Assembly: GCA_020632445.1 (NCBI GenBank)
Contig: JACKFN010000002.1
Location: 36,387-100,386 of the forward strand
DNA from: Candidatus Nomurabacteria bacterium
GTDB taxonomy: Bacteria; Patescibacteriota; Patescibacteriia; Magasanikbacterales; UBA922
DNA: 64,000 bases
Direction: 5' to 3'
Shown: one piece after another, positions 1,330-60,358 of the stretch
Layout: each line of letters starts with the position of its first letter
Position numbering within the stretch: position 1 is the first letter of the stretch
Notes under the pieces: model-generated
The model's input: the letters and a program-made list of their open reading frames with translations, nothing else
Databases searched by the model: none
What the model was told of the DNA's origin: nothing
Position numbers and translations under genes: made by a program

Positions 1330-1403
1330 AGAGATAATTATTTGTAAGACCGCTTCCAGGTAGTACGCATGATACCAAAAAATCTTTCATTGTGCACCTT
1401 CTG

Positions 1404-5685: not shown

Positions 5686-5922
5686 ATGCACGTCGTGCTT
5701 TTCATCGTTGTCTGCCTCATCTTCTGGGGCATCTTCCGTCTGGTACTGTGGGTTATCGGCGGAGGTCTGCGCCTGACCAACTGGGCCGTGAGGAACCAGT
5801 GGGAGCGCCTCGAGCGAAACGACCCGGCGACCGCGGACAACGTCCGCAACTTCACCGCCAAAGCCATCCTCGTCATCGTAGGCATTCTCCTCTTCCTCAC
5901 CCTCATCGACATACTCACCTAG
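5686..5922 (+). CDS. small two-TM membrane protein (high-GC, foreign)
   Basis: 78 aa, GC3 very high, AAGGAG SD 7 nt upstream, followed by terminator 5985..6010. Confidence 0.45.
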   Translation: MHVVLFIVVCLIFWGIFRLVLWVIGGGLRLTNWAVRNQWERLERNDPATADNVRNFTAKAILVIVGILLFLTLIDILT

Positions 5923-8867: not shown

Positions 8868-8985
8868 GTAGTAAGTCTAAAATCTAAATTTTTTCCTTCC
8901 AAGGCCCACCCGTCCTGGTTGGAAAATGAAAAGCCAAAAATACCTGACTTTTGAGTAATATAGCATATTTATGAGAAATTTCAAG

Positions 8986-9014
8986 TAAAAAACGCCCTTA
9001 TTGGGCGTTTTTAT
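8986..9014 (-). terminator. rho-independent terminator (bidirectional shape)
   Basis: aaaaaacgccc-ttatt-gggcgttttt downstream of 9029..10927 gene. Confidence 0.6.
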
Positions 9015-9028
9015 GATTCTACAAGAAT

Positions 9029-26903: not shown

Positions 26904-27830
26904 CTAGTCGTGATTGACCTGGCAGCCGCCGGTTTTGCACAGGTGAATCCCTGCGTTCACCAGATCTCGCCAAATCTCATTGAGCCAATCCTGGAGCAAT
27001 ACCTCTGGAACATTGGCGTACTGATTCCCAGGGAAACGCTCGTAAAAGGCCTCAGTCAGGTCAAACGTGTGGGTGTGGTAGGTGGCTCTCACGAGCTCAG
27101 AGGTGAACCTCCCCCACTCCTCGTGGGTGTACACGGTCCAGGTGAGGATGATCTTTGGCTTTATCTGGATGCTCGCCATGGCTGCCAAAGCCTTCTTGAA
27201 GGCACCGGCCTTGGGCGTGACCGTGTAGCGAAGCCATTCGCCCAGCCCTCGAATCTTGCCCTCCATCCTCTCGATGGCAGCATTGATCTTCTCTGGTGTC
27301 GGCCTGGTGTAGTCCGGACAGATGAACACCGCCAGTGGTGGCTTGACCTGTGAAAGCCCCTGATCAAGGCTCGCGCGAGCGCTGTCTCCATTGCCACGAT
27401 CCACGAAAATGGCAATATTGAGCGCGTCCATGACCTTGCCGAATAATGTGTCAGCAAGCTCTACCTTCATGATGACCTTAAGCCACATGCAGACGTCAGT
27501 AACCGTCTTGTTGGTCTGTGCAATGGCCGTGTACGTCGGGTGGACCACTAGGGCGATAGCGGCTTCGTCATCCGCAATGCTCACATGGTCACCAAACGAG
27601 ACCGACTTCTGGAGCAGTAGGACCTTGTTGCAGATCAACTCCACAGTGCGGCCCCACCAGTACGGGACCTTGCAGGTCCAGTCAGCGCGGCGCCCCAGTC
27701 GGTTCACCCAGACAGCGACGACCATGACGGTGAATGCCGCTGCCACCAGTGTCCCTACGACGCCAACGAGCACGGCAAGCATGACCGCAAACATCTTCCA
27801 TGGCCACAAGGCCACACGAATCAGCTTCAT
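26904..27830 (-). CDS. high-GC hypothetical membrane-anchored protein (foreign)
   Basis: ~58% GC with GC3 bias inside a 38% GC genome; N-terminal TM helix; start placed at MKLIRVALWPW. Confidence 0.5.
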   Translation of the reverse strand: MKLIRVALWPWKMFAVMLAVLVGVVGTLVAAAFTVMVVAVWVNRLGRRADWTCKVPYWWGRTVELICNKVLLLQKSVSFGDHVSIADDEAAIALVVHPTYTAIAQTNKTVTDVCMWLKVIMKVELADTLFGKVMDALNIAIFVDRGNGDSARASLDQGLSQVKPPLAVFICPDYTRPTPEKINAAIERMEGKIRGLGEWLRYTVTPKAGAFKKALAAMASIQIKPKIILTWTVYTHEEWGRFTSELVRATYHTHTFDLTEAFYERFPGNQYANVPEVLLQDWLNEIWRDLVNAGIHLCKTGGCQVNHD

Positions 27831-28021
27831 TTGAGCCCCCAAGGTGAAGAAGGTGAAGTTCGAGGTTAACATATATGAAAAAAGTTGCGTTGTCAATCTT
27901 ACTGCTTGATGTCACTATCAAAAAAAAGATCCCACTTTTGTGAGATCTTGTACTGTATATGAGGTTTTGCTTATCTTTATTAAATCCTAAATCTGTAGGA
28001 AAAAATTTTTTACTCATGACC

Positions 28022-28843
28022 CTACACGGGTTCTTCGTAAAACACCGGATCATTTTCTTCTTCAACGGCATCCATATTCTCTTCCCAATGTATCTCATCA
28101 TCCACTTCTCTATATGGAATACCTTGAGCCTTTTCCTGAAAAGTTGGGTCATAATGAAACCCCTGTGCATCAAGATCATCTGTTTCATCTTCACCAAAGA
28201 AATCCTCTTCGTCATCAGAAGAAACCTTTTTAAATCGCTCAGCCAAAACATCTCCAGCGCTTGACCAGCTGTCTTCGTCTGATCGTTTTGGTGTCCCCTT
28301 TCCCTTCCCCTTTGATACACTTGGTATGCTGATAGGGATGGCAAAGCTTTGTGGCTGCTTTTGTTCCTCTTCAAAAGCACTAATTTGCGCCTGCAAATCA
28401 TCAATATCTTCTTGCGAAGTAAAATCTTCTTCATCTTCCATTTCTCCCTCAAGACTTTCTTCGAGTGATTCGAGTTCTGGATCAGATATTTCTCCGACAC
28501 CTTCATCATCAAACTCATTTTCTTGGTCGTCGAGAAGCAACTCATCGGTAAAATCACCGTCATCATCGCTGTCATCCTCATCGAACAAGAGATCCTCGGT
28601 GTCATCATCTTCATCATCAAAACTCATGAATTCGAGTTCATCGTCCTCCTCTTGTGAATCTGTGTCTTCATATTCTTCTCCATCGTCTTGACCATCAAGC
28701 AATGCTTCGTAGTCTTCCAACCCAAGCAAAACGACGTCTTCACCTTTGGGATCATGAATGATTACCGGACTGCCAGTTTTTTGAGCAATTTTCAGGTATC
28801 GGTCGAGCTGTTTCATAGAGAAATAATTAATCGGAGCAGTCAT
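28022..28843 (-). CDS. polyacidic protein with N-terminal Phd/YefM-like domain
   Basis: MKQLDRYLKIAQKTGSPVIIHDPKGEDVVLLGLEDYEALL resembles Phd/YefM antitoxin fold; followed by ~220 aa of >50% Asp/Glu. Confidence 0.5.
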   Translation of the reverse strand: MTAPINYFSMKQLDRYLKIAQKTGSPVIIHDPKGEDVVLLGLEDYEALLDGQDDGEEYEDTDSQEEDDELEFMSFDDEDDDTEDLLFDEDDSDDDGDFTDELLLDDQENEFDDEGVGEISDPELESLEESLEGEMEDEEDFTSQEDIDDLQAQISAFEEEQKQPQSFAIPISIPSVSKGKGKGTPKRSDEDSWSSAGDVLAERFKKVSSDDEEDFFGEDETDDLDAQGFHYDPTFQEKAQGIPYREVDDEIHWEENMDAVEEENDPVFYEEPV

Positions 28844-29054
28844 GTGTGGATGGATTATATCAACTGCAGAAATGACGTCAAGGGATGTTTTTGAAAACAA
28901 AAACAGACCCTTAGGGTCTGGAAACTTTCCCATAACTGCTTGTAGGATTAGCCCTACAAATGTGACAACTTTGTCTATCCTTCCCGACCGCTTATCATAA
29001 AGACAAGTTTGATCGAGTCGACATGGATTTCTAGGTTTCCCTAGAATGTACTCC

Positions 29055-30530
<1,476 letters not shown>

Positions 30531-30988
30531 CTCAATAAAAGTTTGGTATAAGCTACGACATCACGTCGTAGTTTAAGATTCAATATAATGTCAGGAATAA
30601 ACAAAGATTTGTCACATTTGTCTGGCAAATGCTTACCTTTGTTATGGTTGTAAGTTTATTGTAAGGTACATCCTTCTGCTGTCTTTCGTAGTATGGTCTG
30701 AGAAAGAAAAAAGAGAAACCTATTTTCTGCCACTATCGCGACCTAAGTTACTCTTTTTTCTTCCTAGTATCTGATTACTCGACTTGGGAAAAGTGATCTG
30801 TAATGTGATTGCTGTCTCTACAGTGGCCCTATTATATACAAAGGTGGCAGGTAGTGTCAAGCGTATTATGTGGATATATGGGGATAACTTTTTAAAAAAT
30901 GAATACAATAACTGTTCAAGGTAAGTTACTTGCTTTTTTTTCTCAAAAGATCTATGGTTGTCATACACGAAAAACGCAGGAGGTCATC

Positions 30989-43786: not shown

Positions 43787-43990
43787 TCACCGACTGAAAC
43801 GATGCGCCCAGTAAGGCATGGTGGCGGTGCTCCAGAAGTCGACCCCGAGCTGCTCAGCGGCGCTCAGCGCGATCTGGATGATCGACCACCCCTGCCTCAC
43901 AGATTGCTTGTAGAACGCCTCGATCCCCTCGACGACTCGTCGAACGAGCTTGTGGTGCTGGCGGCGAGTCAACGTCTTCTGCTTGCTCAT
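43787..43990 (-). CDS. high-GC small ORF, possibly a gene fragment
   Basis: 67 aa MSKQKTLTRRQHHKLVRRVVEGIEAFYKQ... with near-uniform G/C third positions; embedded in ~500-bp GC-rich patch. Confidence 0.35.
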   Translation of the reverse strand: MSKQKTLTRRQHHKLVRRVVEGIEAFYKQSVRQGWSIIQIALSAAEQLGVDFWSTATMPYWAHRFSR

Positions 43991-44111: not shown

Positions 44112-44297
44112 TTACATTATGCTGTTACATCCACATCCTTCGCATCCTCCACAGCATACTTCTTCTTCATCCTCAGTTTCGCTTTTGAGTGCTGCCCCTT
44201 GATAAGGCACCACTGTCCAAATATTTGTCACATATGCAAAATCCACCACCAGTAGGAGGTTCATAATGCGCTTCATTGTGACTTGAAACTGAGTCAT
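44112..44297 (-). CDS. small protein with C-terminal Cys cluster (CCGGCEGCGC)
   Basis: 61 aa; acidic stretch then five Cys in 10 residues; TTGACA box upstream. Confidence 0.35.
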   Translation of the reverse strand: MTQFQVTMKRIMNLLLVVDFAYVTNIWTVVPYQGAALKSETEDEEEVCCGGCEGCGCNSIM

Positions 44298-44424: not shown

Positions 44425-44904
44425 TTAAGCCCTTTCATCCTCCATATATACATGAAGGTATTCTGTTTTATCGTATTCAAAAATTTCTCCCTCAGCAAAA
44501 AATCTCTCGATCTCTGCTTTGGCATTTTCAATGCTATCTGAGCAGTGAACCACATTACACATACCCATGGCAAGATCTCCACGGATGGTTCCTGCATCAG
44601 CTTGACCAGCATGAGTAACTCCTGCGATAAGACGTACGGCATCTACGGCACCTTTCCCTTCTGCGCAGATAACAGCGACAGGAGAAGACTTCATAAATCC
44701 CTCAAGCCCTGGATAAAATGGCTTTTCAACATGATGAGCGTAGTGCTCTCGCAATTTATCCTCTGAAAGGTACATAAGCTTGAGTCCGGCAATCTTGAGT
44801 CCTTTGGTTTCAAGACGCTTTACCACCTCACCGATAAGCCCACGTTGTACTCCGTCTGGCTTTACGATGATGAGGGTTTTTTCAAATACACCGTCAAAAC
44901 GCAT
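44425..44904 (-). CDS. ndk: nucleoside diphosphate kinase
   Basis: IIVKPDGVQRGLIGEV...NVVHCSD (active-site His). Confidence 0.9.
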   Translation of the reverse strand: MRFDGVFEKTLIIVKPDGVQRGLIGEVVKRLETKGLKIAGLKLMYLSEDKLREHYAHHVEKPFYPGLEGFMKSSPVAVICAEGKGAVDAVRLIAGVTHAGQADAGTIRGDLAMGMCNVVHCSDSIENAKAEIERFFAEGEIFEYDKTEYLHVYMEDERA

Positions 44905-45024
44905 ATTTTTGATGTTAATTACTGATTATTTGCCCTGATTATAGAGAAAAAAATGAAAAAAGTCAAGTGTTGACAGCTGTTTTTTCTCATGATAGGCTAG
45001 CGGCACTGAGCAGAGGAGGGTGCC

Positions 45025-45348
45025 ATGAAAAGCATCGTATATGGAACGTGGGTCGCGGAAGACGGCAAGTGGTCCTGCAACTGCCCCGCAGGTACCAAGC
45101 CACCCAAGGCCAAAGTACATCGACACGATGTTGATCGATGCAACGAGTGTCAGTCCAGTCGTCCCGAGAAGCAATTTGGTATCTGGCTTGACTACTACGC
45201 CTGGAAATGCGCCTGTGACTTACCGAGGGCAGACCAGGCAAGGTGGTGTCCTGACTGCGTGAGATTTAGACCAGCCCCAAATGGAACCGACGCGGAAGGA
45301 AATCCACGCCCGCCTCTTACCATGGAAGAAGCCCTTCGTCCAGTTTGA
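45025..45348 (+). CDS. high-GC Cys-rich zinc-ribbon protein 1
   Basis: 107 aa; WSCNC, CNEC, WKCAC, WCPDC pairs; AGGAGG SD 6 nt upstream; GC3-biased. Confidence 0.55.
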   Translation: MKSIVYGTWVAEDGKWSCNCPAGTKPPKAKVHRHDVDRCNECQSSRPEKQFGIWLDYYAWKCACDLPRADQARWCPDCVRFRPAPNGTDAEGNPRPPLTMEEALRPV

Positions 45349-45381
45349 CCCACACATACCCACCTCTACATTCAATATCTT

Positions 45382-45411
45382 AAAAGGACACTCCTCAGGA
45401 GTGTCCTTTTT
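45382..45411 (+). terminator. rho-independent terminator
   Basis: aaaaggacactcct-c-aggagtgtccttttt. Confidence 0.65.
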
Positions 45412-45473
45412 GTATTGACAAAACCTTTGAAATGTGTTTAGCTATTATCAGACTCACGACAGGGGACAACCAC

Positions 45474-45734
45474 ATGTCGACCCGCATCCACCATGACCGT
45501 TATTTTCAGTGCACCAAGTGCGGACAAAATCACCGGCCGGATGAGATCCCCCGGGAGTGCACCGGCCGCTACAGTGAGGAAAGCATCTGCAGCGCTGACC
45601 TCAGCAGACAGCTCGAGGAGAAGCGGTGGCGACAATGTCACACGTGCCACTGCTGGAACCATCCCCACAACCCGAACATCCCCCACCGGTACACCAACTG
45701 CGCCAAATGCGACACCGAGCTTCCCACCTCCTGA
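45474..45734 (+). CDS. high-GC Cys-rich zinc-ribbon protein 2
   Basis: 86 aa; CTKCG, WRQCHTCHC, NCAKCD motifs; GC3-biased. Confidence 0.5.
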   Translation: MSTRIHHDRYFQCTKCGQNHRPDEIPRECTGRYSEESICSADLSRQLEEKRWRQCHTCHCWNHPHNPNIPHRYTNCAKCDTELPTS

Positions 45735-45828
45735 GCATCGTAACGCTCCCCACCTTTCTCCCCCATTCACAAAACTTTTTTTACAAAGACACTCCGAGTG
45801 ATCTTTTTTTGTTTTGCCATTCTGTCCC

Positions 45829-45857
45829 TTGACAGGTACTGGCTAGTCAGGTTAAAT
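45829..45857 (+). promoter_or_regulatory. promoter TTGACA-17nt-TTAAAT upstream of Cys-rich protein 3
   Basis: ttgaca ggtactggctagtcagg ttaaat. Confidence 0.4.
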
Positions 45858-45898
45858 AGATCCTAGTGCCTATTTCTTCGACGAACATCGAGGTTCAC

Positions 45899-46663
45899 AT
45901 GGCGAAACGAAGCAAATGTGCTCAGTCACGGATCACGCCAGGAAAGCGCAAGCGTGGTAAGGGAGGCGGTCCGCAGCGTGTGACCGCCCGTAAGCGGGGC
46001 GCGGCAGCGCGCTACTGCCCCCAGTGTGGTGGAACCGACAACAGCCACAGCCATGGGGTCAGGGACCCCAAGACCGGTGTGCTGTGCTACAGTCCCCGGC
46101 TCTGTCGGCCCGCCGACTGCACGCACTGTGGGATCCAAATCCTGGTGGGTCACGTACAGACCGCACACAGCAACTGCGGTCTGCTGGATCGGTCGAAAAC
46201 GAGCATCGATCACCACGCCACCACGACCACGGTCACACCGCCGACGGTGCGGATGACGGGTCCGGACGGCAAGCGTGTCCCCGAAGCCGAGGAGACCTGC
46301 GAGCACTGCGGTGAGAACGTTGTCAGCATCCATAATCACTACCGTGTGACTGGTTCTATCAACAGACGCGTTCGATGGATGTGCGAAAGTGCCGAAAAAA
46401 AGGCGCGTAAGTCTGCTGCAGCTGCGGCGGCCACTGACAAGGCCAAAGCGGCCGCGTCGAAGCCTGCTGCTCAACCGAGCCGCGTGCCCCTCTCGCTGCC
46501 GGAAGGAATTTGGACAGGAAACGGTACAACGCACTGGACCTGTACCACGCCTGGATGTCGTTGTACTAACAACTACACCAGTGACGAATTGTGCTACCGT
46601 TGCGGCAAATCACGCCGCCCCAAGGGTAACCCGCCTCGTCAGTCCTCCACCTACCGCTGGTAA
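45899..46663 (+). CDS. high-GC basic multi-zinc-ribbon protein 3 (RanBP2-like W-x-C-x4-C-x3-N-x7-C-x2-C finger at C-terminus)
   Basis: 254 aa; YCPQCGG, CRPADCTHCG, TCEHCGEN, WTCTTPGCRCTNNYTSDELCYRCG; GAGGT SD; GC3 ~90%. Confidence 0.55.
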   Translation: MAKRSKCAQSRITPGKRKRGKGGGPQRVTARKRGAAARYCPQCGGTDNSHSHGVRDPKTGVLCYSPRLCRPADCTHCGIQILVGHVQTAHSNCGLLDRSKTSIDHHATTTTVTPPTVRMTGPDGKRVPEAEETCEHCGENVVSIHNHYRVTGSINRRVRWMCESAEKKARKSAAAAAATDKAKAAASKPAAQPSRVPLSLPEGIWTGNGTTHWTCTTPGCRCTNNYTSDELCYRCGKSRRPKGNPPRQSSTYRW

Positions 46664-46760
46664 TCACAAATCCCACCTTCTTCCCTCTCACATTTTTCAT
46701 CCAAAAACAAAACATCCCTATGAGGACGTTTTTTGTTTGTATGTTCAAATGTTTATATGA

Positions 46761-48887
46761 CTAAAGCTCATCCAGACTCTTCAAAAAACTCCTTTTGTTC
46801 CTTTCATAATCAAAAATCTCACCCTCCGGCACATATTCAATATCATCAACATCATCGCTCGGATCAGAAAACACGGTTTCAGCTCCAAAGGCCCCAATTT
46901 CTTCTATCAGATCTTTATCAATTTCCTGCAAAAACATGGATGGTCCACCAAGCACACTACGAAAACTTCCGACAAGCGGATATGTCATGTGCAAATATTT
47001 TCTAGCCCGAGTAATGGCAACATAAAACAAACGCCTTTCTTCCTCAAGACCTTTATCCTCACGTAGTGCCCGTTCATTGGGGAAATCTCCTTGCGCCACC
47101 CCAAGGATAAATACAGCTTCCCATTCAAGTCCCTTTGCCTGATGAATCGTTGACATGACGAGTTTCCCTTCGTCATCGACATGAGTTTTGTCTGTAACAG
47201 CACCCTGAAAACTTTCTTGCATGGAAGCTTCGCCCAAAAATTTTCCAAGATCCGTTTGTACTGCTGCAAAATCAGAAAGCTGTTCAATATCTTTCATGCG
47301 ATCACGATAGTTGTCATATTCTGATTCCAAGTATTCGGTATATTTTGAATCCAATAGTGCATCAATTAAGTCACTTGGGGTTACCTTTTCGATATCACCA
47401 TACTTTTTGTACACCGCTTCCATAATTTCAAAAATTTGCAAAAAATCATTCCATCCCACTTGTCCACGAGAAGAGAGTTTACTCCCCAGCCGCCCTAAAT
47501 CCTCTCCATCAAACCAAGCTCCGATAGCGGCGGAGCCTTGCAGTGCGTCTATAATTTTTTGCGCTGATGCGGGGCCAATTCCCACCTGCATGTTCAGTAC
47601 ACGACTCCATGCAATGGCGTCATCTTTGTTATGAAAAATACGCAAGTACGCCAAGATATCTTTGATATGTGATCGTTCAAAAAATCTCACTCCTCCACGA
47701 TAATCATAGGGAATATCACGCTTGGTGAGTTCAACTTCCAGTACCTGCGAAAGATGTGACGCTCGAAAGAGCACGGCCATGTGATTGATCGGTACTCCTT
47801 CGTCTCGAAGCTCGAGTATACGGTCAGCGACAAATTCTGCTTCTTCTATCTTGTCTGCAAAGGCTTGTACTTCAGGCTTGGTGAAATACTCACCAACACT
47901 CTGGAGATTTTTTTCAAACTGAGAGGTGTTTTGTGCTATGACGGTATTTGCAACGTCAAGAATGTTAGGCGTTGATCGGTAGTTGGTTTCCAGTTTGAAA
48001 ATTTTTGCGTCCGGAAACCGATGTTCAAATTGTAAAATGTTATCAATATCTGCAGCGCGAAAAGAATAGATACTTTGTGCATCATCCCCCACCACCAAAA
48101 TATTTTTGTGGTGACTTGCCAGCACATCAATGATGTTTGCCTGAATTTTATTGGTGTCCTGATACTCATCAACGAGAATATATTCAAACTGTTTGCTGAG
48201 CTTTTCTCGCACTGGCTGCGATTGGAGCAAAAGCAAAAGAAGATTGGTCAAAAGATCATCAAAGTCCATGGCATTGGCTGCCATTTTTCTTTTTTTGTAT
48301 TCTGTTGCAATACGCGCGATATCATCTGCAAAGACACTCCAGTTGGGATGTTTGAGCTCCAGAACATCCTCTATGGTCATTTCGGCATTTCTGGCATAGC
48401 TGATAATTCCCTGCAATACTTTTGCCGAAGGAAAACGTTTTGATTTTCTATCAACTCCTTCAAGCTTGAGACACACCTTCATCAAATCTTTGGCGTCTTC
48501 TGAATCCAAAATCGAAAAGTTGTTCTGATAGCCAAGCAGTGCCGCATACTGTTTGAGAATACGAAAGGCAATATGATGAAACGTCCCAGACCACGTCACC
48601 TGTTTGTCTTTGCCCAAAAGCGCTGCCACCCGATGCTGCATCTCTTTGGCGGCTTTATTGGTAAAGGTCACGAGCAAAATATGGCTCGGGTCAATACCTT
48701 TTTCGAGTAAGTACGCAACGCGATGAACAATCGTTCTCGTCTTTCCACTCCCTGCTCCTGCCAAAACCAAACATGGCCCGTCCCCCATTTTGACGACGCT
48801 ATATTGCTGTGAGTTGAGAAGGTTTTCGTAATCAAGCATAAATTTCTGCTCGTCTATGCATTGTAGCAAAAAAAGACCTTTCAGCAA
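46761..48887 (-). CDS. UvrD/PcrA-family ATP-dependent DNA helicase
   Basis: 708 aa; Walker A AGAGSGKTRT, helicase motifs throughout. Confidence 0.85.
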   Translation of the reverse strand: MLKGLFLLQCIDEQKFMLDYENLLNSQQYSVVKMGDGPCLVLAGAGSGKTRTIVHRVAYLLEKGIDPSHILLVTFTNKAAKEMQHRVAALLGKDKQVTWSGTFHHIAFRILKQYAALLGYQNNFSILDSEDAKDLMKVCLKLEGVDRKSKRFPSAKVLQGIISYARNAEMTIEDVLELKHPNWSVFADDIARIATEYKKRKMAANAMDFDDLLTNLLLLLLQSQPVREKLSKQFEYILVDEYQDTNKIQANIIDVLASHHKNILVVGDDAQSIYSFRAADIDNILQFEHRFPDAKIFKLETNYRSTPNILDVANTVIAQNTSQFEKNLQSVGEYFTKPEVQAFADKIEEAEFVADRILELRDEGVPINHMAVLFRASHLSQVLEVELTKRDIPYDYRGGVRFFERSHIKDILAYLRIFHNKDDAIAWSRVLNMQVGIGPASAQKIIDALQGSAAIGAWFDGEDLGRLGSKLSSRGQVGWNDFLQIFEIMEAVYKKYGDIEKVTPSDLIDALLDSKYTEYLESEYDNYRDRMKDIEQLSDFAAVQTDLGKFLGEASMQESFQGAVTDKTHVDDEGKLVMSTIHQAKGLEWEAVFILGVAQGDFPNERALREDKGLEEERRLFYVAITRARKYLHMTYPLVGSFRSVLGGPSMFLQEIDKDLIEEIGAFGAETVFSDPSDDVDDIEYVPEGEIFDYERNKRSFLKSLDEL

Positions 48888-49940: not shown

Positions 49941-50426
49941 CTATTTTGGTGGGTTGACTGAAAAAAGCCGACACTGCTCAGGCACCGCGCGTAGCGGACA
50001 GTGCAGCCTCTGCTGGTGGGTGGCAAGGCGATCACACACACCACAAGACGCACTCCACGGCACAATGTCCCATGTATCGACAGACGACTCTCTCCATCCT
50101 GCCTTTTGCGCAAGATGAGAGACTTTGTCGTTGTGTGTGAGTAGAAATGCAGAAATGTCGTTGGCAAGTACGAGAAGCTTACCAAAAATCTCACTCGCCA
50201 AGCCCCTGCCACGCGCACGAGGATGCACCCAGACAGAACCAAGTTCAAACCAACGATCATCCGGGGTTTCCCACAGCGCCGCAAAAGCAACAATGACCAA
50301 GCCCTCACTGACAAGAACGGCCTGTCCCTCTAGAAACTTCCTCTCCAAAAGGTCGGCGGAAAGCCGGCCACCAAGCAAATCAGACTCGCTATTCAGGTTG
50401 TTAGCCAAATCATCCCAGCGGTACAT
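49941..50426 (-). CDS. GNAT-family N-acetyltransferase (GC-elevated)
   Basis: WVHPRARGRGLASEI (motif A R/Q-x-x-G-x-G/A); start placed at MYRWDD; ~55% GC. Confidence 0.55.
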   Translation of the reverse strand: MYRWDDLANNLNSESDLLGGRLSADLLERKFLEGQAVLVSEGLVIVAFAALWETPDDRWFELGSVWVHPRARGRGLASEIFGKLLVLANDISAFLLTHNDKVSHLAQKAGWRESSVDTWDIVPWSASCGVCDRLATHQQRLHCPLRAVPEQCRLFSVNPPK

Positions 50427-51953: not shown

Positions 51954-52658
51954 TGAGCCCGCGATGGAATGTCGCGGGCGCTCAGGTAGGGTAGGTTGTT
52001 GGTGGGATGTACTAGGCGAGGAGGGACTGGACGGCGTCGGCGATGCGGTTCTGCTGCTCGGGCGTGCCGGCCACGAGCATCCCGAGCTTGCAGTCGCCGA
52101 TGGTGCCCCAGTTGAACACCACCACGCCAGTGCCGGTCTTCGAGTCGAACACGTGGCCGTTCAGATCCAGGCGACTGAAGTCGATGTGGTTGACCTGGAA
52201 GTTCCTGGCCATCCACTGCGGAATCTGCAGACGCTCGGCCACGATCGTCGGGAACGTCGCACCGTTGTAACGCGGGTTACACTCGATCATCAGGAAGTCA
52301 CCATCAGCGGTCACCACCACGTCGAAGGCGAAGTACCCCCGCATCCCGCGACGCGCCAGCTCGCTGGCCACCGGATCGGTGATCCCCCAGGGCTGGTACT
52401 GCGTCGGGTAGCGGTTGCCATCGTGGGCGTTGCCCTTGAGGATCTGCACACTCACCGCGCCGCGCTTGACGCGACCCTGGCCATCCACGTGGTACTGGAC
52501 GTTCAGGAAGGCCTTGGCGCCCGCGACCTCACGCTGGATCTGGAACGGAACATCGTCCGCCAGCTGATCGAGGTTGGTCTCCAGCTCATGACGATCGTTG
52601 CACCGGATCACGCCCAGACCCGACACCGAGACCGCGACCTTGAGGTACACGGGGTACG
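51954..52658. repeat. 705-bp direct repeat copy A (1 mismatch vs 53411..54115)
   Basis: Sequence from tgagcccgcgatggaatgtcgcgggc... to ...gaggtacacggggtacg is identical between copies except g/t at 52179 vs 53636; covers the 3' ~214 codons of each ATP-grasp gene plus 58 nt of 3' flank including hairpin GCCCGCGA-tggaatg-TCGCGGGC. Confidence 0.9.
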
Positions 52659-53106
52659 GGAACGACCAGGTGCTCCCGAGACCGGCCTTGTTGTCGTAAA
52701 GCCAGGTCTGCGGGGTGGGCACGCGCAAGGTTCGACACAACGACACGAGCTGGTTCTTGTCGTTCATCTTGGCCGTGATGTCGTACCGCCTCTGGTTCGG
52801 GCGCACCGCGTGCGCCTGGTGGCCGAAGAAGAACACGTCGAGCTCGTGGTTCAAGAACTCCCCCTGGGTCGCGACGCCGAAGCTCGCGTCCCAGACCACC
52901 TCGCCGGTGACCGACAGACCTACCTCGACGTAGTGCGCCTGGATCCAATCCCAGTGTTCGGCGAGCCTCGAATCCAGTTGGATCGTGTCCCACTGCTGCG
53001 TCGCGCACAGCGTACGCCCGCTGTAGTTGGGCAGCCCGGCGATGCGGTGGTGCTCACCGTAGCCCAGGCAGTCGAGCATGTCGTGGTTGAAAATTCGCTT
53101 GTTCAC
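52012..53106 (-). CDS. ATP-grasp ligase paralog A (high-GC, GTG start)
   Basis: ATP-grasp core: VYLKVAVSVSGLGV, FQIQREV, FAFDVVVTADGDFLMIECNPRYNG; GC3 ~90%; GGGGAG SD before GTG; N-terminal half ~70% identical to paralog B. Confidence 0.75.
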   Translation of the reverse strand: MNKRIFNHDMLDCLGYGEHHRIAGLPNYSGRTLCATQQWDTIQLDSRLAEHWDWIQAHYVEVGLSVTGEVVWDASFGVATQGEFLNHELDVFFFGHQAHAVRPNQRRYDITAKMNDKNQLVSLCRTLRVPTPQTWLYDNKAGLGSTWSFPYPVYLKVAVSVSGLGVIRCNDRHELETNLDQLADDVPFQIQREVAGAKAFLNVQYHVDGQGRVKRGAVSVQILKGNAHDGNRYPTQYQPWGITDPVASELARRGMRGYFAFDVVVTADGDFLMIECNPRYNGATFPTIVAERLQIPQWMARNFQVNHIDFSRLDLNGHVFDSKTGTGVVVFNWGTIGDCKLGMLVAGTPEQQNRIADAVQSLLA

Positions 53107-53109
53107 TTC

Positions 53110-53178
53110 TCAAATCTCCCCAAATTGGTGTCTAGACCTTTCGGCCCCCTCTAGCGAAACGGAACCCCGCGTCGCCAT
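53110..53178 (-). CDS. 22-aa high-GC ORF translationally coupled to ATP-grasp A (candidate carrier/substrate peptide)
   Basis: MATRGSVSLEGAERSRHQFGEI, TGA 3 nt before the GTG start codon of the ligase; same high GC as the ligase. Confidence 0.3.
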   Translation of the reverse strand: MATRGSVSLEGAERSRHQFGEI

Positions 53179-53330: not shown

Positions 53331-53410
53331 ATTAATTAGAGGTTAACACCCCCAAAAAAAATTGTCAATAGTCACTGTGTATAAATAGTTTTTTACATCA
53401 CAATGATCAT

Positions 53411-54115
53411 TGAGCCCGCGATGGAATGTCGCGGGCGCTCAGGTAGGGTAGGTTGTTGGTGGGATGTACTAGGCGAGGAGGGACTGGACGGCGTCGGCGA
53501 TGCGGTTCTGCTGCTCGGGCGTGCCGGCCACGAGCATCCCGAGCTTGCAGTCGCCGATGGTGCCCCAGTTGAACACCACCACGCCAGTGCCGGTCTTCGA
53601 GTCGAACACGTGGTCGTTCAGATCCAGGCGACTGAAGTCGATGTGGTTGACCTGGAAGTTCCTGGCCATCCACTGCGGAATCTGCAGACGCTCGGCCACG
53701 ATCGTCGGGAACGTCGCACCGTTGTAACGCGGGTTACACTCGATCATCAGGAAGTCACCATCAGCGGTCACCACCACGTCGAAGGCGAAGTACCCCCGCA
53801 TCCCGCGACGCGCCAGCTCGCTGGCCACCGGATCGGTGATCCCCCAGGGCTGGTACTGCGTCGGGTAGCGGTTGCCATCGTGGGCGTTGCCCTTGAGGAT
53901 CTGCACACTCACCGCGCCGCGCTTGACGCGACCCTGGCCATCCACGTGGTACTGGACGTTCAGGAAGGCCTTGGCGCCCGCGACCTCACGCTGGATCTGG
54001 AACGGAACATCGTCCGCCAGCTGATCGAGGTTGGTCTCCAGCTCATGACGATCGTTGCACCGGATCACGCCCAGACCCGACACCGAGACCGCGACCTTGA
54101 GGTACACGGGGTACG
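53411..54115. repeat. 705-bp direct repeat copy B
   Basis: see copy A. Confidence 0.9.
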
Positions 54116-54596
54116 TGAAGGCCACGTCACGCAGCGCCGACTTGTTGTCGAACAACTGCGTCTCGGGCGTGGGCACGCCCAGCTCGCGGCACAGGGCGAT
54201 CAGCTTGTTCTTGTTGTTCATGGCCTCGGTGATGTCGAACCACTGCTGGTTCGGGCGCACCGCGTGCGCCTGGTGGCCGAAAAAGAACACATCGAGCTCG
54301 TGGCCCGCGAACTCGGACGCAGCCGCGACGCCGAAGCTCGCGTCCCAGACCACCTCGCCGGTGACCGACAGACCGACCTCGGCGTAGTGCGCCTGGATCC
54401 AGTCCCAGTGCGGCGACAGCGCACCGTCCAGCTGGATCGTGTCCCACTGCTGCGTCGCGCACAATGGACGGCCCGTGTAGTGCTTGAGCACCGCCCACAT
54501 AGCCGCCTGATCGGCACGAACTCCGGCGTTGGCAACGCCCAACGGGTTCATACCGAAGGAATCCAAGACGTCACCGTTAAAAAGCTTTCGCTTCAT
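53469..54596 (-). CDS. ATP-grasp ligase paralog B (high-GC)
   Basis: Start at MKRKLFNGDVLDSFG aligning with paralog A N-terminus (alternative in-frame start 15 codons upstream); C-terminal 214 aa identical to A. Confidence 0.75.
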   Translation of the reverse strand: MKRKLFNGDVLDSFGMNPLGVANAGVRADQAAMWAVLKHYTGRPLCATQQWDTIQLDGALSPHWDWIQAHYAEVGLSVTGEVVWDASFGVAAASEFAGHELDVFFFGHQAHAVRPNQQWFDITEAMNNKNKLIALCRELGVPTPETQLFDNKSALRDVAFTYPVYLKVAVSVSGLGVIRCNDRHELETNLDQLADDVPFQIQREVAGAKAFLNVQYHVDGQGRVKRGAVSVQILKGNAHDGNRYPTQYQPWGITDPVASELARRGMRGYFAFDVVVTADGDFLMIECNPRYNGATFPTIVAERLQIPQWMARNFQVNHIDFSRLDLNDHVFDSKTGTGVVVFNWGTIGDCKLGMLVAGTPEQQNRIADAVQSLLA

Positions 54597-54683
54597 CTTC
54601 ACTTCCCCGCATCCGCTTGTGATAAATAGCTGAGAGTTCATCGGAAAGGCGTAAACCTTCCCGATCAAAACCTCAATCAACGA

Positions 54684-54715
54684 AAAAAGCCACCCGAGGT
54701 GGCTTGTGTTTTGCT
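54684..54715 (-). terminator. attenuator terminator downstream of Phe leader peptide
   Basis: minus strand GCCACC-tcgg-GTGGC followed by TTTTTT; 5' arm can alternatively pair with GGTGG-TAA-GTGTGTTT at the end of the leader ORF. Confidence 0.65.
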
Positions 54716-54731
54716 GTATACTCAAACACAC

Positions 54732-55432: not shown

Positions 55433-56376
55433 CCATGGAACTTCAACGTTTTGTGCTCGAGATGCTCCCCCAACTGCTCGAGTGCGGCAACGCCGCAGCC
55501 ATTGCTGTCTGGGCGCGCGAGCATCTACAGCAGTTGCCTGCTTCAAGGGATGAGCTTACGGTCCTCGATCTATCCATGATCGAAACGAGTCTGGCTCACA
55601 GTGGCGTGCCCATACCAGCATCGCTCACCAGTCTACTGATGAACCTCACAAACGGTGGCCCTTTCCTCACCTACCACCAACTGGTGATGGTAAACCCTGC
55701 GCAGGCCACTCGATGCTTCACTCGTGGACCTTCCGGTGAGGCCGAACGTGCTTTTTACCTTGCCCACAAGGAAATTGAGCATGGCCTCGCCATGGCATGC
55801 GCCAAAATCATGAAGGCCTTGGGACACACTGACCCCCAACAGGCCTGCAATGCTCTGCATGGCATTGAGCATGACACAAGCGTTCTGATCGAAAACACTC
55901 GACACCTCGCTGGGATGAATCCAGAACACTTCGCTGCCTTTCGGGGATATCTCGCCAGCCATCCAGTCCATGGATTCCCTGGTCCAAGCGGTCTGTTTTC
56001 TCCAGGAGTCTACCTCCTCGAGCTGCTCCTGCGTGGCCCACAGAGCACGTGGCCCCAGTTCTTTGCAAATAGAGGCACATGCTTTGACAACGAATCGCTG
56101 CGAAGTATCACGGGCGCCATGGAGGATGGGCACACGCTCACGGCACACATGATATCACTCGACTGGCCACCACGCATGCATGAGGTCGTCCGGTTCCTTG
56201 AGACACTGCTCGACAGCTTCCGTGGTCACCACTACAAAGCCGTACGCAAACAGATTCCACAAGCGCTCACCCCAGGTGGAACAGGAACCGCTGGAGAATC
56301 TGCAGGACAATTCCTGCGTGATCGAATGCGTGAAAGCAAAGCCTCCCACCGAAATCAACCCACCAAACGGGAGTAG
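55433..56376 (+). CDS. tryptophan 2,3-dioxygenase-like protein (high-GC)
   Basis: AFRGYLASHP...LLELLL and GTGTAGESAGQFLRDRM resemble TDO motifs DFRGYL..FRLLE and GTGGSSG..YLR; AAGGAGA SD; ~60% GC. Confidence 0.45.
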
Positions 56377-58745: not shown

Positions 58746-59951
58746 ATGAAACTTTTTGAAACCATCGCACAATCAAGCGAGTGCCAAGCGAGAGCTGGCA
58801 TTATCCACACCGATCACGGAGACATTGAAACTCCTATTTTTATGCCTGTAGGAACCAAGGCAACGGTGAAAAGCCTTGATCCTGATGACCTTCACGACCT
58901 TGATGCGCAGATTATCCTTGCCAATACCTACCACCTGCATCTTCAACCTGGCGCTGACCTCATTGATTCCTTTGGCGGGATACATAACTTTATGCAATGG
59001 GAGAGACCCGTCCTAACTGACAGTGGTGGATTTCAAGTTTTTTCTCTTGGTGCCCAAAAAGACGCCAATGCCAATGGAGAAAAACTCGTCAAAATCGACG
59101 AAGATGGCGTAGACTTTCGAAGCTTTATCGATGGGTCAAAACATCGATTCACTCCAGAATCTGCCATCGATATCCAACACAAAATTGGTGCCGACATCAT
59201 CATGGCATTTGACGAATGTACTCCCGATGCCGCCCCAATCGATTATGCACGTGAAGCAATGGAAAGAACACATCGGTGGGCAAAGCGTTGTATTGATGAA
59301 CATGAAAAGCAGATAAAAAAAAGAGAAGATTCATATCGCAAATTCCTTTTTGGAATTATCCAAGGTGGAAATCATAAACAACTTCGCGAAGAGTCTACCA
59401 AAGCCATTTGTAAAATGAACTTTGATGGTATTGCGATTGGGGGAGAATCCATTGGCTACAACATGGAAGGCACCAAAGAAATTCTTGATTGGATTGCCCC
59501 ATACCTTCCCGCAGACAAACCCCACTACACCATGGGCGTAGGTTTTTCGCCTTTTGATTTATTTGATGTGGTAGAAAGAGGAATAGATATGTTTGATTGC
59601 GTAGCACCAACACGCATGGCACGAAATGGGGCACTCTATGTAACCCCTCAAACTTTTGCAAAGCAAGCTACAGGAAATGAACAAAATCCAAGACGTGTCT
59701 GGATTGATATCACCAATGCCAAGTATGCTGATGATCATCTTCCGATTGATCCCCTCCTTGAAAATAGTCCACTGCAACATTTTTCTCGTGCCTACATTCA
59801 TCACTTATTTAAAGCGAATGAGCTGCTCGCCTACAGGATTGCAACGCAACATAACCTTTTTTATCTCTTAAACCTGATGAAACAGATGAGAGAAGCGATA
59901 AAAGAAGATAGATTTCTGAAGTTTAAAAAAAAATGGGGATACAAACAATAA
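58746..59951 (+). CDS. tgt: queuine tRNA-ribosyltransferase
   Basis: TPIFMPVGT...DSGGFQ...zinc CxCxxC..H region; alternative start at 58731. Confidence 0.85.
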   Translation: MKLFETIAQSSECQARAGIIHTDHGDIETPIFMPVGTKATVKSLDPDDLHDLDAQIILANTYHLHLQPGADLIDSFGGIHNFMQWERPVLTDSGGFQVFSLGAQKDANANGEKLVKIDEDGVDFRSFIDGSKHRFTPESAIDIQHKIGADIIMAFDECTPDAAPIDYAREAMERTHRWAKRCIDEHEKQIKKREDSYRKFLFGIIQGGNHKQLREESTKAICKMNFDGIAIGGESIGYNMEGTKEILDWIAPYLPADKPHYTMGVGFSPFDLFDVVERGIDMFDCVAPTRMARNGALYVTPQTFAKQATGNEQNPRRVWIDITNAKYADDHLPIDPLLENSPLQHFSRAYIHHLFKANELLAYRIATQHNLFYLLNLMKQMREAIKEDRFLKFKKKWGYKQ

Positions 59952-59976
59952 TACATCAAAACATTCCAAACTTACA

Positions 59977-60006
59977 AAAGACACGCCTCGAGCGTGTCTT
60001 TGCTTT
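59977..60006 (+). terminator. terminator after tgt
   Basis: aaagacacgc-ctcga-gcgtgtctttgcttt. Confidence 0.65.
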
Positions 60007-60039
60007 ACAAAATGAAAAAATCGGGGTAAAGTGTTTGCA

Positions 60040-60358
60040 CACTCACACGCTGCTTGGCAGCACTGGAGGCATCTTGAGCCGAGAAATCATCTTTCTCCTC
60101 ATCGGCGGACCGTTCATGGGATGGACACTCCGTCCTTTCGAGATCATCGAAGACAGCGATGACGACGAAGATCCGGACCCGTCCGCGCCGATCCCGGAGA
60201 TCACTCACCATAACCTCTTCCCCCAGCCGCTGACTCCCCCCGCTGCCCAGCGCAGGCCCGACCGGCGCCTGGCGAACAGTGGAGCGCACCGCCGGGCGAT
60301 CTACAGGCCCAACACCTTCCGCACCCCGACCCGCGCCGCCAGCCGCAGGCACGGCTGA
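60040..60358 (+). pseudogene. high-GC coding fragment without credible start (remnant of acquired gene)
   Basis: ~320 bp at ~65% GC with strong GC3 bias in + frame (…EDSDDDEDPDPSAPIPEITHHNLFPQPLTPPAAQRRPDRR…); sits between tgt terminator and queA terminator. Confidence 0.4.

What the first reader, a model, noticed from the sequence alone, without database searches (positions are those of the whole stretch)
45025..46663. Three consecutive high-GC genes encoding Cys-rich zinc-ribbon proteins, each with its own signals
ORF1 (107 aa), ORF2 (86 aa) and ORF3 (254 aa, basic) all carry repeated W-x-C-x-C or C-x2-C pairs: WSCNC, WKCAC, WCPDC, WRQCHTCHC, YCPQCGG, TCEHCGEN. ORF3 ends in a W-x-C-x4-C-x3-N-x7-C-x2-C finger resembling RanBP2-type zinc fingers, which are largely eukaryotic or viral. 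All three have ~90% GC3, strong SD sequences (AGGAGG, GAGGT), separate TTGACA boxes and hairpin terminators. This makes them a paralogous family of small nucleic-acid- or protein-binding zinc-ribbon proteins acquired together from a high-GC source. No enzyme domain is present.
Basis: partly seen in the sequence, partly recalled or inferred. Interest (0 to 1): 0.55.

Follow-up and report, generated by a model that had tools for sequence, protein, structure and literature searches.

The report
Small zinc-finger gene cassettes in a CPR bacterium
Between two housekeeping genes of an ultra-small (Patescibacteria) bacterium sit three self-contained GC-rich genes for small cysteine-rich, probably zinc-binding proteins found only in its closest relatives; this is an ordinary kind of gene with an odd, long-maintained composition.

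Summary
The three ORFs exist as described (45025-45348, 45474-45734, 45899-46663, + strand), lying between ndk and uvrD in a MAG that NCBI labels Candidatus Nomurabacteria. The Cys motifs, perfect TTGACA boxes and two SD sequences are real. GC3 is 0.54/0.78/0.67, not ~90%, and only ORF1 has a strong terminator.

ORF3 has two homologs (~40% identity) among 1.84 billion representatives. They sit in the same ndk-uvrD slot, and 14 of 16 Cys are invariant. ORF2 has an uncalled homolog (54% identity, 8 of 9 Cys conserved) in one relative, in a different cassette order. ORF1 matches only itself.

The three proteins are not demonstrably paralogous. They were not acquired together: relatives carry ORF3 alone or ORF3+ORF2.

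No Pfam zf-RanBP or zf-A20 hit was found. A profile of the ORF3 C-terminus does hit the FUS RanBP2-type finger best in the PDB (E 0.028, borderline). No phage, defence or enzyme match was found.

My best reading is that these are autonomous, fast-evolving accessory genes for multi-zinc-finger, probably nucleic-acid-binding proteins.

One thing is unexplained. They stay GC-rich and SD-led in an AT-rich genome whose core genes lack SD, although synonymous sites in the neighbouring genes are saturated.

The parts
44938..44966 (-). ndk promoter (TTGACT-17-TATAAT), back to back with the ORF1 promoter
   Evidence: 11 of 12 consensus matches. It is conserved in L082 and L081.
44970..44998 (+). ORF1 promoter-like site (TTGACA-17-TAGGCT)
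45014..45019 (+). ORF1 Shine-Dalgarno sequence AGGAGG, 5 nt before the ATG
45025..45348 (+). ORF1, 107 aa. It holds two W-x-C-x-C...C-x2-C-x3-RP modules (residues ~7-47 and ~51-83). It is annotated at NCBI as a hypothetical protein (MCB9798376.1), and no homolog is known.
   Evidence: GC1/2/3 are 0.57/0.55/0.54.
45382..45410 (+). ORF1 terminator: a perfect 13-14 bp hairpin followed by a T-run
   Evidence: -19.4 kcal/mol, z -6.3.
45415..45443 (+). ORF2 promoter-like site (TTGACA-17-TTAGCT). The junction CTTTTTGTATTGACAAAA is identical upstream of the ORF2 homolog in L081.
45474..45734 (+). ORF2, 86 aa, with two predicted Zn sites (C13/C16/C29/C39 and C55/C58/C76/C79) and a conserved WNHPHNP loop. 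A homolog lies at L081 1245-1496.
   Evidence: 54% identity, tblastn E 4e-34. GC3 is 0.78 here and 0.77 in the homolog.
45785..45806 (+). ORF2 weak terminator. It looks like a decayed copy of the ORF1 terminator; the wider segment 45781-45819 resembles 45380-45422.
   Evidence: (Smith-Waterman score 28 against 14.6+-2.2, reached by 0 of 2000 shuffles).
45829..45857 (+). ORF3 promoter (TTGACA-17-TTAAAT), conserved as CTTGAC(A)-N17-GGTTAAATA in L082 and L081
45890..45894 (+). ORF3 Shine-Dalgarno sequence GAGGT
   Evidence: The orthologs carry GGAG or GGAGGA.
45899..46663 (+). ORF3, 254 aa, pI 9.9. It has a basic N-terminal tail, a Cys/His-rich domain (residues 38-98), a zinc-ribbon-like domain (118-165), a helix (165-186) and a RanBP2/A20-like finger (203-241). 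The start at ATG 45899 is confirmed by the invariant M-A-K.
46709..46732 (.). Hairpin shared by the convergent genes ORF3 (+) and uvrD (-). The scan called it as a terminator on the - strand.

Best explanation
The region holds three autonomous accessory-gene cassettes, each with a sigma-70-type promoter, an SD-like sequence, a small ORF and a hairpin with a T-run. They lie in a variable spacer between ndk and uvrD of a Patescibacteria (CPR) genome.

Shown:
- ORF2 and ORF3 are real protein-coding genes, kept in related species with nearly all Cys and several His invariant while the rest of the sequence diverges quickly.
- The cassettes differ in number and order between relatives.

Inferred:
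- The proteins fold around structural zinc sites, roughly four in ORF3 and two each in ORF1 and ORF2. The sites are of the CPxCG-related zinc-ribbon kind, and ORF3 ends in a RanBP2/A20-like knuckle.
- They act in the cytoplasm as nucleic-acid-binding proteins, most likely RNA- or DNA-binding regulators. ORF3 would use its strongly basic N-terminal tail and its zinc fingers for this.

They are lineage-restricted, fast-evolving accessory genes. They are neither a jointly imported island nor a proven paralog family.
For: Organism and setting:
- ORF1 is identical to MCB9798376.1 of Candidatus Nomurabacteria.
- Its neighbours are ndk and uvrD.

ORF3:
- A full phmmer search of 1.84 billion representatives found two homologs, at E 4e-33 and 6e-31.
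- They occupy the same ndk | gene | uvrD slot on 15 independent contigs.
- 14 of 16 Cys are invariant (P 5e-7) and 5 His are invariant.
- pN (0.33-0.46) is below pS (0.64-0.76).
- The promoter is conserved.

ORF2:
- It has a homolog in L081: 54% identity, 8 of 9 Cys conserved, pN 0.31 against pS 0.72.

ORF1:
- The motif is duplicated internally, a pattern reached by 0 of 20,000 shuffles.
- It has a strong SD and a strong terminator.

Zinc-finger character:
- Every Pfam hit is a sub-threshold zinc-ribbon family: Zn_ribbon_recom at E 0.005, DUF7576 and DUF5795.
- The PDB profile hit is to the FUS RanBP2 finger, E 0.028.
- All three proteins meet the published CPxCG-related motif definition of PMC2253796.
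- ORF3 has pI 9.9.

Cassette autonomy and shuffling.
Against: - No function is demonstrated, and no family above threshold matches in Pfam, NCBIfam, PHROGs or PADLOC.
- The AlphaFold models are poor. ORF3 has mean pLDDT 53.5, with only residues ~120-190 near 80. ORF1 has 55.8. Foldseek against the PDB found nothing. Zinc geometry is therefore not verified.
- ORF1 has no homolog and no codon-position GC signal.
- The ORF2 and ORF3 -10 boxes and terminators are weak.
- Nucleic-acid binding rests only on charge and on a borderline finger resemblance.
- No expression data could be consulted.
Confidence: 0.5

Rival explanations
1. This is the first reader's model: one recent horizontal transfer brought a block of three paralogous zinc-ribbon genes from a high-GC donor such as an actinobacterium or actinophage.
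For: - GC is 0.55-0.62 against a ~0.42 background.
- SD sequences are present, although core genes lack them.
- HGT is common in Patescibacteria (PMC12455944).
Against: - ORF3 is syntenic in relatives that lack ORF1 and/or ORF2. Where ORF2 is present, it lies on the other side of ORF3.
- Synonymous sites of the flanking ndk and uvrD are saturated between these genomes (pS 0.75). The acquisition of ORF3 is therefore old, yet its GC3 is still 0.65-0.70.
- No homolog was found in any high-GC organism, phage or viral contig.
- There is no significant similarity among the three proteins.
Confidence: 0.07
2. The three genes arose by tandem duplication of one cassette, for example the ORF3 3' end with its finger, 3' UTR and terminator. 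They then diverged beyond recognition. On this view they are paralogs whose similarity survives only in motif grammar and flanking sequences.
For: - They share a C-terminal grammar: (G-x-W)...W-x(1-2)-C...C...C-x2-C-x3-5-[RL]P, followed soon by the stop codon.
- hhalign of the ORF3 C-terminal profile against ORF1 residues 6-50 gives a pairwise E of 4e-4, at probability 34%.
- The 3' flanks resemble each other. dn1-dn2 scores 28 against 14.6+-2.2, reached by 0 of 2000 shuffles. dn2-dn3 has p 0.011.
- CCCACCTT(T)CT(T)CCC occurs only after ORF2 and after ORF3 in the 64 kb window.
Against: - HMM searches give no cross-family hit at E<=1.
- ORF2 against ORF3 has hhalign probability 4%.
- Short DNA matches inside the coding regions are out of frame.
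- Terminators and T-runs share features by function.
- The motif was defined after looking at these sequences.
Confidence: 0.2
3. The proteins are conflict or symbiosis factors rather than regulators of the cell's own genes. They could be anti-phage or anti-defence proteins, or act on the host bacterium. This would explain their fast evolution, patchy distribution and moron-like packaging.
For: - pN is 5-8 times that of the neighbouring genes.
- Presence, absence and order all vary between close relatives.
- Each is an autonomous transcription unit whose composition deviates from its surroundings, as described for phage morons (PMC3594210).
- Zinc-binding modules that resemble RanBP2 fingers occur in defence helicases (PMC12458937).
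Against: - PADLOC gives no meaningful hit. The only one is ORF2 against DrmB, E 0.0016 over 22 residues.
- There are no phage or viral relatives.
- There are no defence genes next door: the neighbours are ndk, uvrD and arfB.
- By eye I saw no signal peptide or hydrophobic segment in the sequences.
Confidence: 0.18
4. ORF1 is not a gene but a chance open frame in GC-rich DNA. Weaker version: it is a young or decaying gene.
For: - Its only match among 5.8 billion clusters is itself.
- GC1/2/3 are flat at 0.57/0.55/0.54.
- GC-rich DNA here carries long ORFs in several frames and on both strands.
- AlphaFold pLDDT is 55.8.
Against: - It has the best SD (AGGAGG) and the strongest terminator of the three, and a TTGACA-17-TAGGCT promoter.
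- Its duplicated zinc-knuckle pattern was never reached in 20,000 shuffles.
Confidence: 0.15

Closest known systems
CPxCG-related small zinc-finger proteins (Brz of Halobacterium salinarum and the class defined with it; PMC2253796)
   Same: - The proteins are small and lack other domains.
- They are built on paired C-x2-C patterns 7-40 residues apart, with at least one CPxCG, CPxC or CxxCG pattern. ORF3 has CPQCG, CTHCG, CEHCG and CYRCG. ORF2 has CTKCG. ORF1 has CPDC.
- Most members are 'hypothetical' and are often missed by gene callers, as ORF2 and ORF3 were here.
- The one studied member, Brz, regulates transcription.
   Different: - That class is a motif class, not a homologous family, and is mainly archaeal (about 8% of small archaeal proteins against 1.5% in bacteria).
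- ORF3 has 254 aa and several fingers.
- No sequence similarity to Brz was seen.
RanBP2-type zinc finger (Pfam PF00641; e.g. FUS, ZRANB2, Npl4 NZF)
   Same: - The ORF3-family C-terminus reads W-x-C-T-x-P-x-C-(x11)-C-x2-C-x3-5-R-P.
- It aligns with the FUS finger [29 protein letters not shown], which is the best PDB hit (E 0.028).
- FUS- and ZRANB2-type fingers bind single-stranded RNA. I take this from my own knowledge of Nguyen et al. 2011, which appears only as reference 115 in PMC7641849.
   Different: - No Pfam zf-RanBP hit appears even at E<=10.
- The loop is one residue longer (x11 instead of x10), and x18 in one homolog.
- The conserved Asn is present only in the window protein.
- The family is essentially eukaryotic, and the context here is a bacterial multi-finger protein.
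A20-type zinc finger (Pfam PF01754; TNFAIP3)
   Same: The spacing C-x4-C-x11-C-x2-C fits the A20 pattern exactly in ORF3 and P0003. The best single-sequence PDB hit is a TNFAIP3 finger.
   Different: - That hit has E 0.19, which is not significant.
- There is no Pfam hit.
- One homolog has an 18-residue loop.
Phage 'morons' (PMC3594210)
   Same: Each is an independent transcription unit with its own promoter and terminator. [quoted passage not shown]
   Different: - These units are not in a prophage, and the flanking genes are chromosomal housekeeping genes.
- No phage homologs were found.
- ORF3 has been kept at the same site over a long divergence.

Membership tests
RanBP2-type zinc finger (PF00641) | Match to the family HMM at or above the gathering score | tested here: not met
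   There was no zf-RanBP hit for the whole proteins at E<=1. There was none for the isolated modules of ORF1, ORF2, ORF3, P0002 and P0003 at E<=10.
RanBP2-type zinc finger (PF00641) | Pattern W-x-C-x(2,4)-C-x3-N-x6-C-x2-C (recalled from memory) | tested here: inconclusive
   - ORF3 reads W-T-C-x4-C-x3-N-x7-C-x2-C, which is one residue too long.
- P0003 has the same spacing but lacks the Asn. P0002 has an 18-residue loop.
- The ORF1 modules have C-x-C instead of C-x(2,4)-C. ORF2 has W-x2-C-x2-C-x3-N-x13-C-x2-C.
RanBP2-type zinc finger (PF00641) | Sequence similarity to solved RanBP2-type fingers | tested here: inconclusive
   The profile of the three C-termini has the FUS zinc finger 6g99_B as its best PDB hit, at E 0.028 and 17.7 bits. 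The eS31 zinc ribbon follows at E 0.19.
RanBP2-type zinc finger (PF00641) | Zinc-ribbon fold of two beta-hairpin knuckles around one Zn | tested here: inconclusive
   AlphaFold places short strands at residues 204-208 and 212-215, but pLDDT there is only 51-59. Foldseek found nothing.
A20-type zinc finger (PF01754) | C-x(2,4)-C-x11-C-x2-C spacing and an HMM match | tested here: inconclusive
   The spacing is met in ORF3 and P0003 but not in P0002. There is no Pfam hit. The TNFAIP3 finger hit has E 0.19.
CPxCG-related zinc-finger motif class (PMC2253796) | Two Cys/His pair patterns 7-40 residues apart, at least one of them CPxCG, CPxCx or CxxCG | tested here: met
   I read this from the sequences against the definition quoted.
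- ORF3: CPQCG (residues 40-44) and CTHCG (74-78), 30 residues apart.
- ORF2: CTKCG (13-17) and CHTC (55-58), 38 apart.
- ORF1: CNEC (39-42) and CPDC (75-78), 32 apart.
This is a motif class and does not show homology.
Generic zinc ribbon (Pfam clan; Zn_ribbon_recom, Zn_Ribbon_1 and others) | HMM match above threshold | tested here: not met
   The best hits are Zn_ribbon_recom at E 0.005 (17.7 bits against a cut-off of 25.3), and DUF7576 and DUF5795 (16.6 and 15.5 bits against a cut-off of 27), all for ORF3 residues 118-172. All are below the cut-off.
Zinc-binding protein (any) | Metal ligands conserved among homologs | tested here: met
   In ORF3, 14 of 16 Cys are invariant against 71 of 254 columns overall (P 5e-7). 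In ORF2, 8 of 9 Cys are conserved (P 0.02). Actual zinc binding cannot be tested with these tools.
Phage moron | Own promoter and terminator, with GC content deviating from the neighbours | tested here: met
   The definition is quoted.
Phage moron | Located within a phage or prophage genome | tested here: not met
   The flanking genes are ndk, uvrD, arfB and tRNA-Pro. There are no PHROG hits and no phage or viral-contig relatives.
Anti-phage defence system component (PADLOC) | Match to a defence-protein model | tested here: not met
   The only hit is ORF2 against DrmB, over 22 residues at E 0.0016. Nothing was found for ORF1, ORF3, P0002 or P0003.

The most novel reading that the evidence does not exclude
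In this Patescibacteria lineage a distinct class of accessory genes, including these zinc-finger cassettes, is actively kept GC-rich and SD-dependent inside an AT-rich genome whose core genes lack SD. The class forms shufflable promoter-gene-terminator modules. The cause would be selection (for example on mRNA structure or on a separate SD-dependent translation regime), GC-biased gene conversion at recombination hot spots, or repeated re-seeding from an unsampled GC-rich gene pool. It would not be simple decay after a single HGT event.
Probability: 0.25. Interest if true: 0.65.

Novelty: new member of a known kind. Interest (0 to 1): 0.36.

Why it matters
- CPR/Patescibacteria genomes are small and full of unannotated genes. 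This work shows that at least two of three 'orphan' Cys-rich ORFs are real, conserved, zinc-finger-type genes. Public gene calls missed them or called them on the wrong strand.
- It adds two or three tiny new families to the poorly studied class of small prokaryotic zinc-finger proteins.
- It gives a concrete, testable case of accessory genes that keep a foreign-looking composition (GC-rich, with SD) long after neighbouring synonymous sites have saturated. If that is general, GC content would be an unreliable clock for horizontal transfer in these organisms. It would also hint at two translation-initiation regimes in one cell.

Tried and rejected
- Exact look-ups of ORF1, ORF3 and ndk in the contig index found nothing. 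In one search I gave the ndk coordinates wrongly, and one search repeated the look-up with the correct ones.
- The word-indexed homology searches found no relative: nothing for ORF3 or ORF2, and for ORF1 only its own NCBI entry. Only the full HMMER search found the ORF3 homologs.
- The ORF2 homolog turned up by accident, in a blastn of L081 against the window.
- These all gave nothing usable: phage GenBank tblastn, IMG/VR scans, PHROGs, PADLOC and NCBIfam, Rfam at permissive E and tandem repeats.
- AlphaFold on a three-sequence alignment and on a single sequence gave low-confidence models, and Foldseek against the PDB was meaningless. I ran no further search on them.
- I considered allelic replacement of ORF3 between L081 and L082, because the CDS is 60% identical while the spacer is 80% identical. 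I rejected it because the uvrD fragment has the same pS as ORF3 (0.67 against 0.64).
- I rejected an HNH-like reading of ORF3 residues 38-98 by eye: there is no D/H-H or C-x2-C-H signature.
- My first Pfam scan of the other GC-rich island used the antisense frames. I repeated it on the correct frames.
- I looked for orthologs of the window's other GC-rich genes in the relatives' loci, to test whether maintained GC is general. There were no hits, because the fetched loci do not cover those regions.
Full report
**What is there.** The window has about 44% GC and carries a ribosomal-protein operon, EF-Tu, a 16S rRNA gene and two tRNAs. ORF1 is identical to NCBI protein MCB9798376.1, 'hypothetical protein H6758_01470 [Candidatus Nomurabacteria bacterium]', from a 188-kb contig. 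The source is therefore a CPR/Patescibacteria MAG. The three ORFs lie on the + strand, between ndk (44425-44904, -) and a UvrD/PcrA helicase gene (46761-48887, -).

**Checking the observation.**
- The lengths, Cys motifs, TTGACA boxes (44970, 45415, 45829) and the SD sequences AGGAGG and GAGGT are as described.
- TTGACA-N16-19-TANNNT occurs 20 times in the window against 2.9 expected, so sigma-70-type promoters are a real signal in this genome.
- The -10 elements of the three genes are weak: TAGGCT, TTAGCT and TTAAAT.
- GC3 is 0.54, 0.78 and 0.67, not ~90%. ORF1 has no codon-position GC gradient.
- The ORF1 terminator is excellent (-19.4 kcal/mol, z -6.3). Those of ORF2 and ORF3 are weak hairpins with T-runs. 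The ORF3 hairpin also serves the convergent uvrD gene.
- The Cys arrangement exceeds what composition alone would give. The double-knuckle pattern occurs twice in ORF1 and in 0 of 20,000 shuffles.

**Are they genes?**
- ORF3: the word-indexed search found nothing. A full phmmer scan of 1.84 billion cluster representatives found two homologs: P0002 (268 aa) and P0003 (247 aa), at ~40% identity and E 4e-33 and 6e-31.
- P0003 is encoded on 15 independent contigs. In every place shown it lies between ndk (-) and uvrD (-), on the opposite strand, and is followed by a GC-rich metallophosphatase gene. P0002 lies in the same slot on a short contig.
- In the three-way alignment 14 of 16 Cys are invariant against 28% of all columns (P 5e-7). 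Five His are also invariant, and so is the N-terminal M-A-K, which fixes the start at 45899.
- The promoter CTTGAC(A)-N17-GGTTAAATA is shared by all three.
- ORF2: the database search found no hit at all. A blastn of L081 against the window then showed 70% identity over 159 nt inside ORF2.
- L081 1245-1496 (+) encodes an 83-aa protein that is 54% identical to ORF2 (tblastn E 4e-34). C13, C16, C29, C39, C55, C58, C76, C79 and the WNHPHNP loop are conserved. The public gene call at that locus had taken the antisense ORF instead.
- In both families pN is below pS. ORF2 and ORF3 are therefore genuine coding genes.
- ORF1 matches only itself. Its strong SD, terminator and internal motif repeat make it probably real, but this is not proven.

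**Paralogy and joint acquisition.**
- BLASTP between the three proteins is insignificant.
- HMMs of each family find no other family at E<=1 among 21,619 six-frame ORFs.
- hhalign of ORF2 against ORF3 gives probability 4%. The ORF3 C-terminal profile against ORF1 residues 6-50 gives probability 34%.
- The three do share a motif grammar: W...C...C...C-x2-C-x3-5-[RL]P near the C-terminus.
- The 3' flanks are also similar. dn1-dn2 scores 28 against 14.6+-2.2 (reached by 0 of 2000 shuffles), and dn2-dn3 has p 0.011. CCCACCTT(T)CT(T)CCC occurs only after ORF2 and after ORF3 in the 64 kb.
- Duplication of cassette parts is therefore possible but unproven.
- The cassettes were not acquired together. 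L082 has ORF3 only. L081 has ORF3 followed by ORF2. The window has ORF1, ORF2, ORF3.
- A more distant relative, the 1.23-Mb chromosome OZ246405.1, instead has a 275-aa acidic, low-GC gene in the ndk-uvrD gap.
- The junction CTTTTTGTATTGACAAAA precedes ORF2 in both the window and L081.

**Age and composition.**
- Between the window and L082, NDK is 93% and UvrD 72-74% identical in protein. Their synonymous sites are saturated (pS 0.75).
- ORF3 is only 37-41% identical by pairwise BLASTP or codon alignment. Its pN is 0.42-0.46, against 0.06-0.19 for the neighbouring genes.
- Even so, the ORF3 orthologs keep GC3 of 0.65-0.70, and the ORF2 pair 0.77-0.78. The neighbouring genes have GC3 of 0.29-0.40.
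- The cassettes also carry SD sequences, while core genes almost never do. In the window the counts are 7 of 12 GC-rich genes against 3 of 46 core genes (Fisher p 2e-4). In L082, 0 of 15 core genes have one. The 16S 3' end retains CCUCC.
- The GC-richness is therefore not a fresh HGT scar. It is maintained, and I could not explain why.

**What the proteins look like.**
- No Pfam, NCBIfam, PHROG or PADLOC family reaches threshold. There is no phage or viral relative and no Rfam element.
- ORF3 (pI 9.9) has five parts:
  - a highly basic N-terminal tail;
  - a Cys/His-rich region (residues 38-98), with CPQCG...CTHCG and a C-x2-C-x12-H-x2-C spacing;
  - a zinc-ribbon-like domain (118-165), which gives Zn_ribbon_recom at E 0.005 and is the only well-predicted part of the AlphaFold model (pLDDT ~80);
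  - a helix (165-186);
  - a C-terminal finger, W-x-C-T-x-P-x-C-x11-C-x2-C-x5-RP.
- A profile of that finger hits the FUS RanBP2-type finger best in the PDB (E 0.028), followed by the eS31 zinc ribbon. The single sequence hits a TNFAIP3 A20 finger (E 0.19). Pfam zf-RanBP and zf-A20 do not hit.
- All three proteins satisfy the published CPxCG-related zinc-finger motif definition (PMC2253796). That is a class of small, mostly uncharacterised proteins whose studied member, Brz, regulates transcription.
- The AlphaFold models are otherwise poor, and the fold search was uninformative.

**Most likely mechanism.**
- Shown: ORF2 and ORF3 are autonomous, conserved, fast-evolving genes with invariant metal-ligand residues.
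- Inferred: structural zinc sites. Also inferred: cytoplasmic nucleic-acid binding, to RNA or DNA, through the fingers and the basic tail, giving a regulatory or nucleic-acid-handling role.
- Rivals: conflict or symbiosis factors packaged like phage morons (PMC3594210); diverged tandem paralogs; for ORF1, a spurious or very young ORF.

**Verdict.** This is an ordinary kind of thing: small zinc-finger ORFan genes in a CPR genome. The families themselves are new and very narrow. The one puzzling aspect is the long-term maintenance of GC-rich, SD-led cassettes in an AT-rich genome that otherwise lacks SD.

Noticed in passing
window 52012-53106 (-) and 53469-54731 (-): There are two near-identical, very GC-rich genes (GC3 0.85-0.89), apparently a duplication. 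They resemble ATP-grasp enzymes only weakly (Pfam ATP-grasp_3, E 0.002, below the cut-off). The long + strand ORFs 51964-53154 and 53403-54629 are their antisense shadows.
   Followed up: partly
window-wide; e.g. 5686-5922 (+), 6079-6894 (+), 26904-27896 (-), 43787-43990 (-), 49941-50426 (-), 55435-56376 (+), 59933-60358 (+): About a dozen GC-rich genes are scattered through the AT-rich genome. They include a 2OG-Fe(II) oxygenase and a GNAT, but most have no family. Most carry SD sequences, whereas core genes, including ribosomal-protein genes, have none (7 of 12 against 3 of 46). The 16S 3' end still has CCUCC.
   Followed up: partly
window 44112-44297 (-); L082 9025-9195 (-): A 61-aa protein has a hydrophobic N-terminus, an acidic stretch and a C-terminal CCGGCEGCGC. 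It is conserved immediately downstream of ndk in the relative (56 aa, 41% identity). It has its own promoter (44338-44310) and a strong terminator (44097-44066). Its function is unknown; it could be a metal-binding or modified peptide.
   Followed up: partly
window 44938-44998: The ndk promoter (TTGACT-17-TATAAT, - strand) and the ORF1 promoter (TTGACA-17-TAGGCT, + strand) are back to back, with their -35 boxes 3 nt apart. This suggests coupled or competing divergent transcription.
   Followed up: no
L081 1170-1514 (-) versus 1245-1496 (+); window ORF2 and ORF3: The public gene call took a 114-aa antisense ORF instead of the real ORF2-type gene. The window's ORF2 and ORF3 are absent from the 15-billion-protein collection, although ORF1 is present. 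GC-rich small genes in these MAGs appear to be systematically mis-annotated.
   Followed up: yes
window 45380-45422 and 45781-45819: The ORF2 cassette is bracketed by ~40-nt direct repeats. Each consists of a terminator hairpin, TTTTTGT and a TTGACA-like box, and the downstream copy is decayed. A similar T-run plus GT..GA.AAAAG motif flanks the ORF2 homolog in L081. This may be a footprint of cassette insertion or duplication.
   Followed up: partly
window 29057-30539 (-): The 16S rRNA gene stands alone. A protein gene (28022-28933, a highly acidic protein) lies just past its 3' end, where a 23S gene would follow in a linked operon. The rRNA genes are therefore unlinked in this part of the genome.
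   Followed up: no
L001-L004 (e.g. OZ246405.1, a 1.23-Mb chromosome): The closest UvrD relatives (50-61% identity) of this 'Candidatus Nomurabacteria' MAG are titled 'uncultured Gammaproteobacteria bacterium'. The taxonomic labels are inconsistent. L002 also shows GC-rich islands (e.g. 8235-9698, 56% GC) in a ~35% GC genome, so such islands are a feature of the lineage.
   Followed up: partly
L082 10905-11996 (+): In the relative, the place of ORF1/ORF2 in the ndk-uvrD spacer is taken by a GC-rich (0.57, GC3 0.68) membrane-anchored metallophosphatase gene. The spacer is a hot spot for different GC-rich cargo.
   Followed up: partly
window 1-64000: Cumulative GC skew falls steadily across the whole window, and most genes are on the - strand. 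ORF1-3 are therefore probably transcribed head-on to replication.
   Followed up: no
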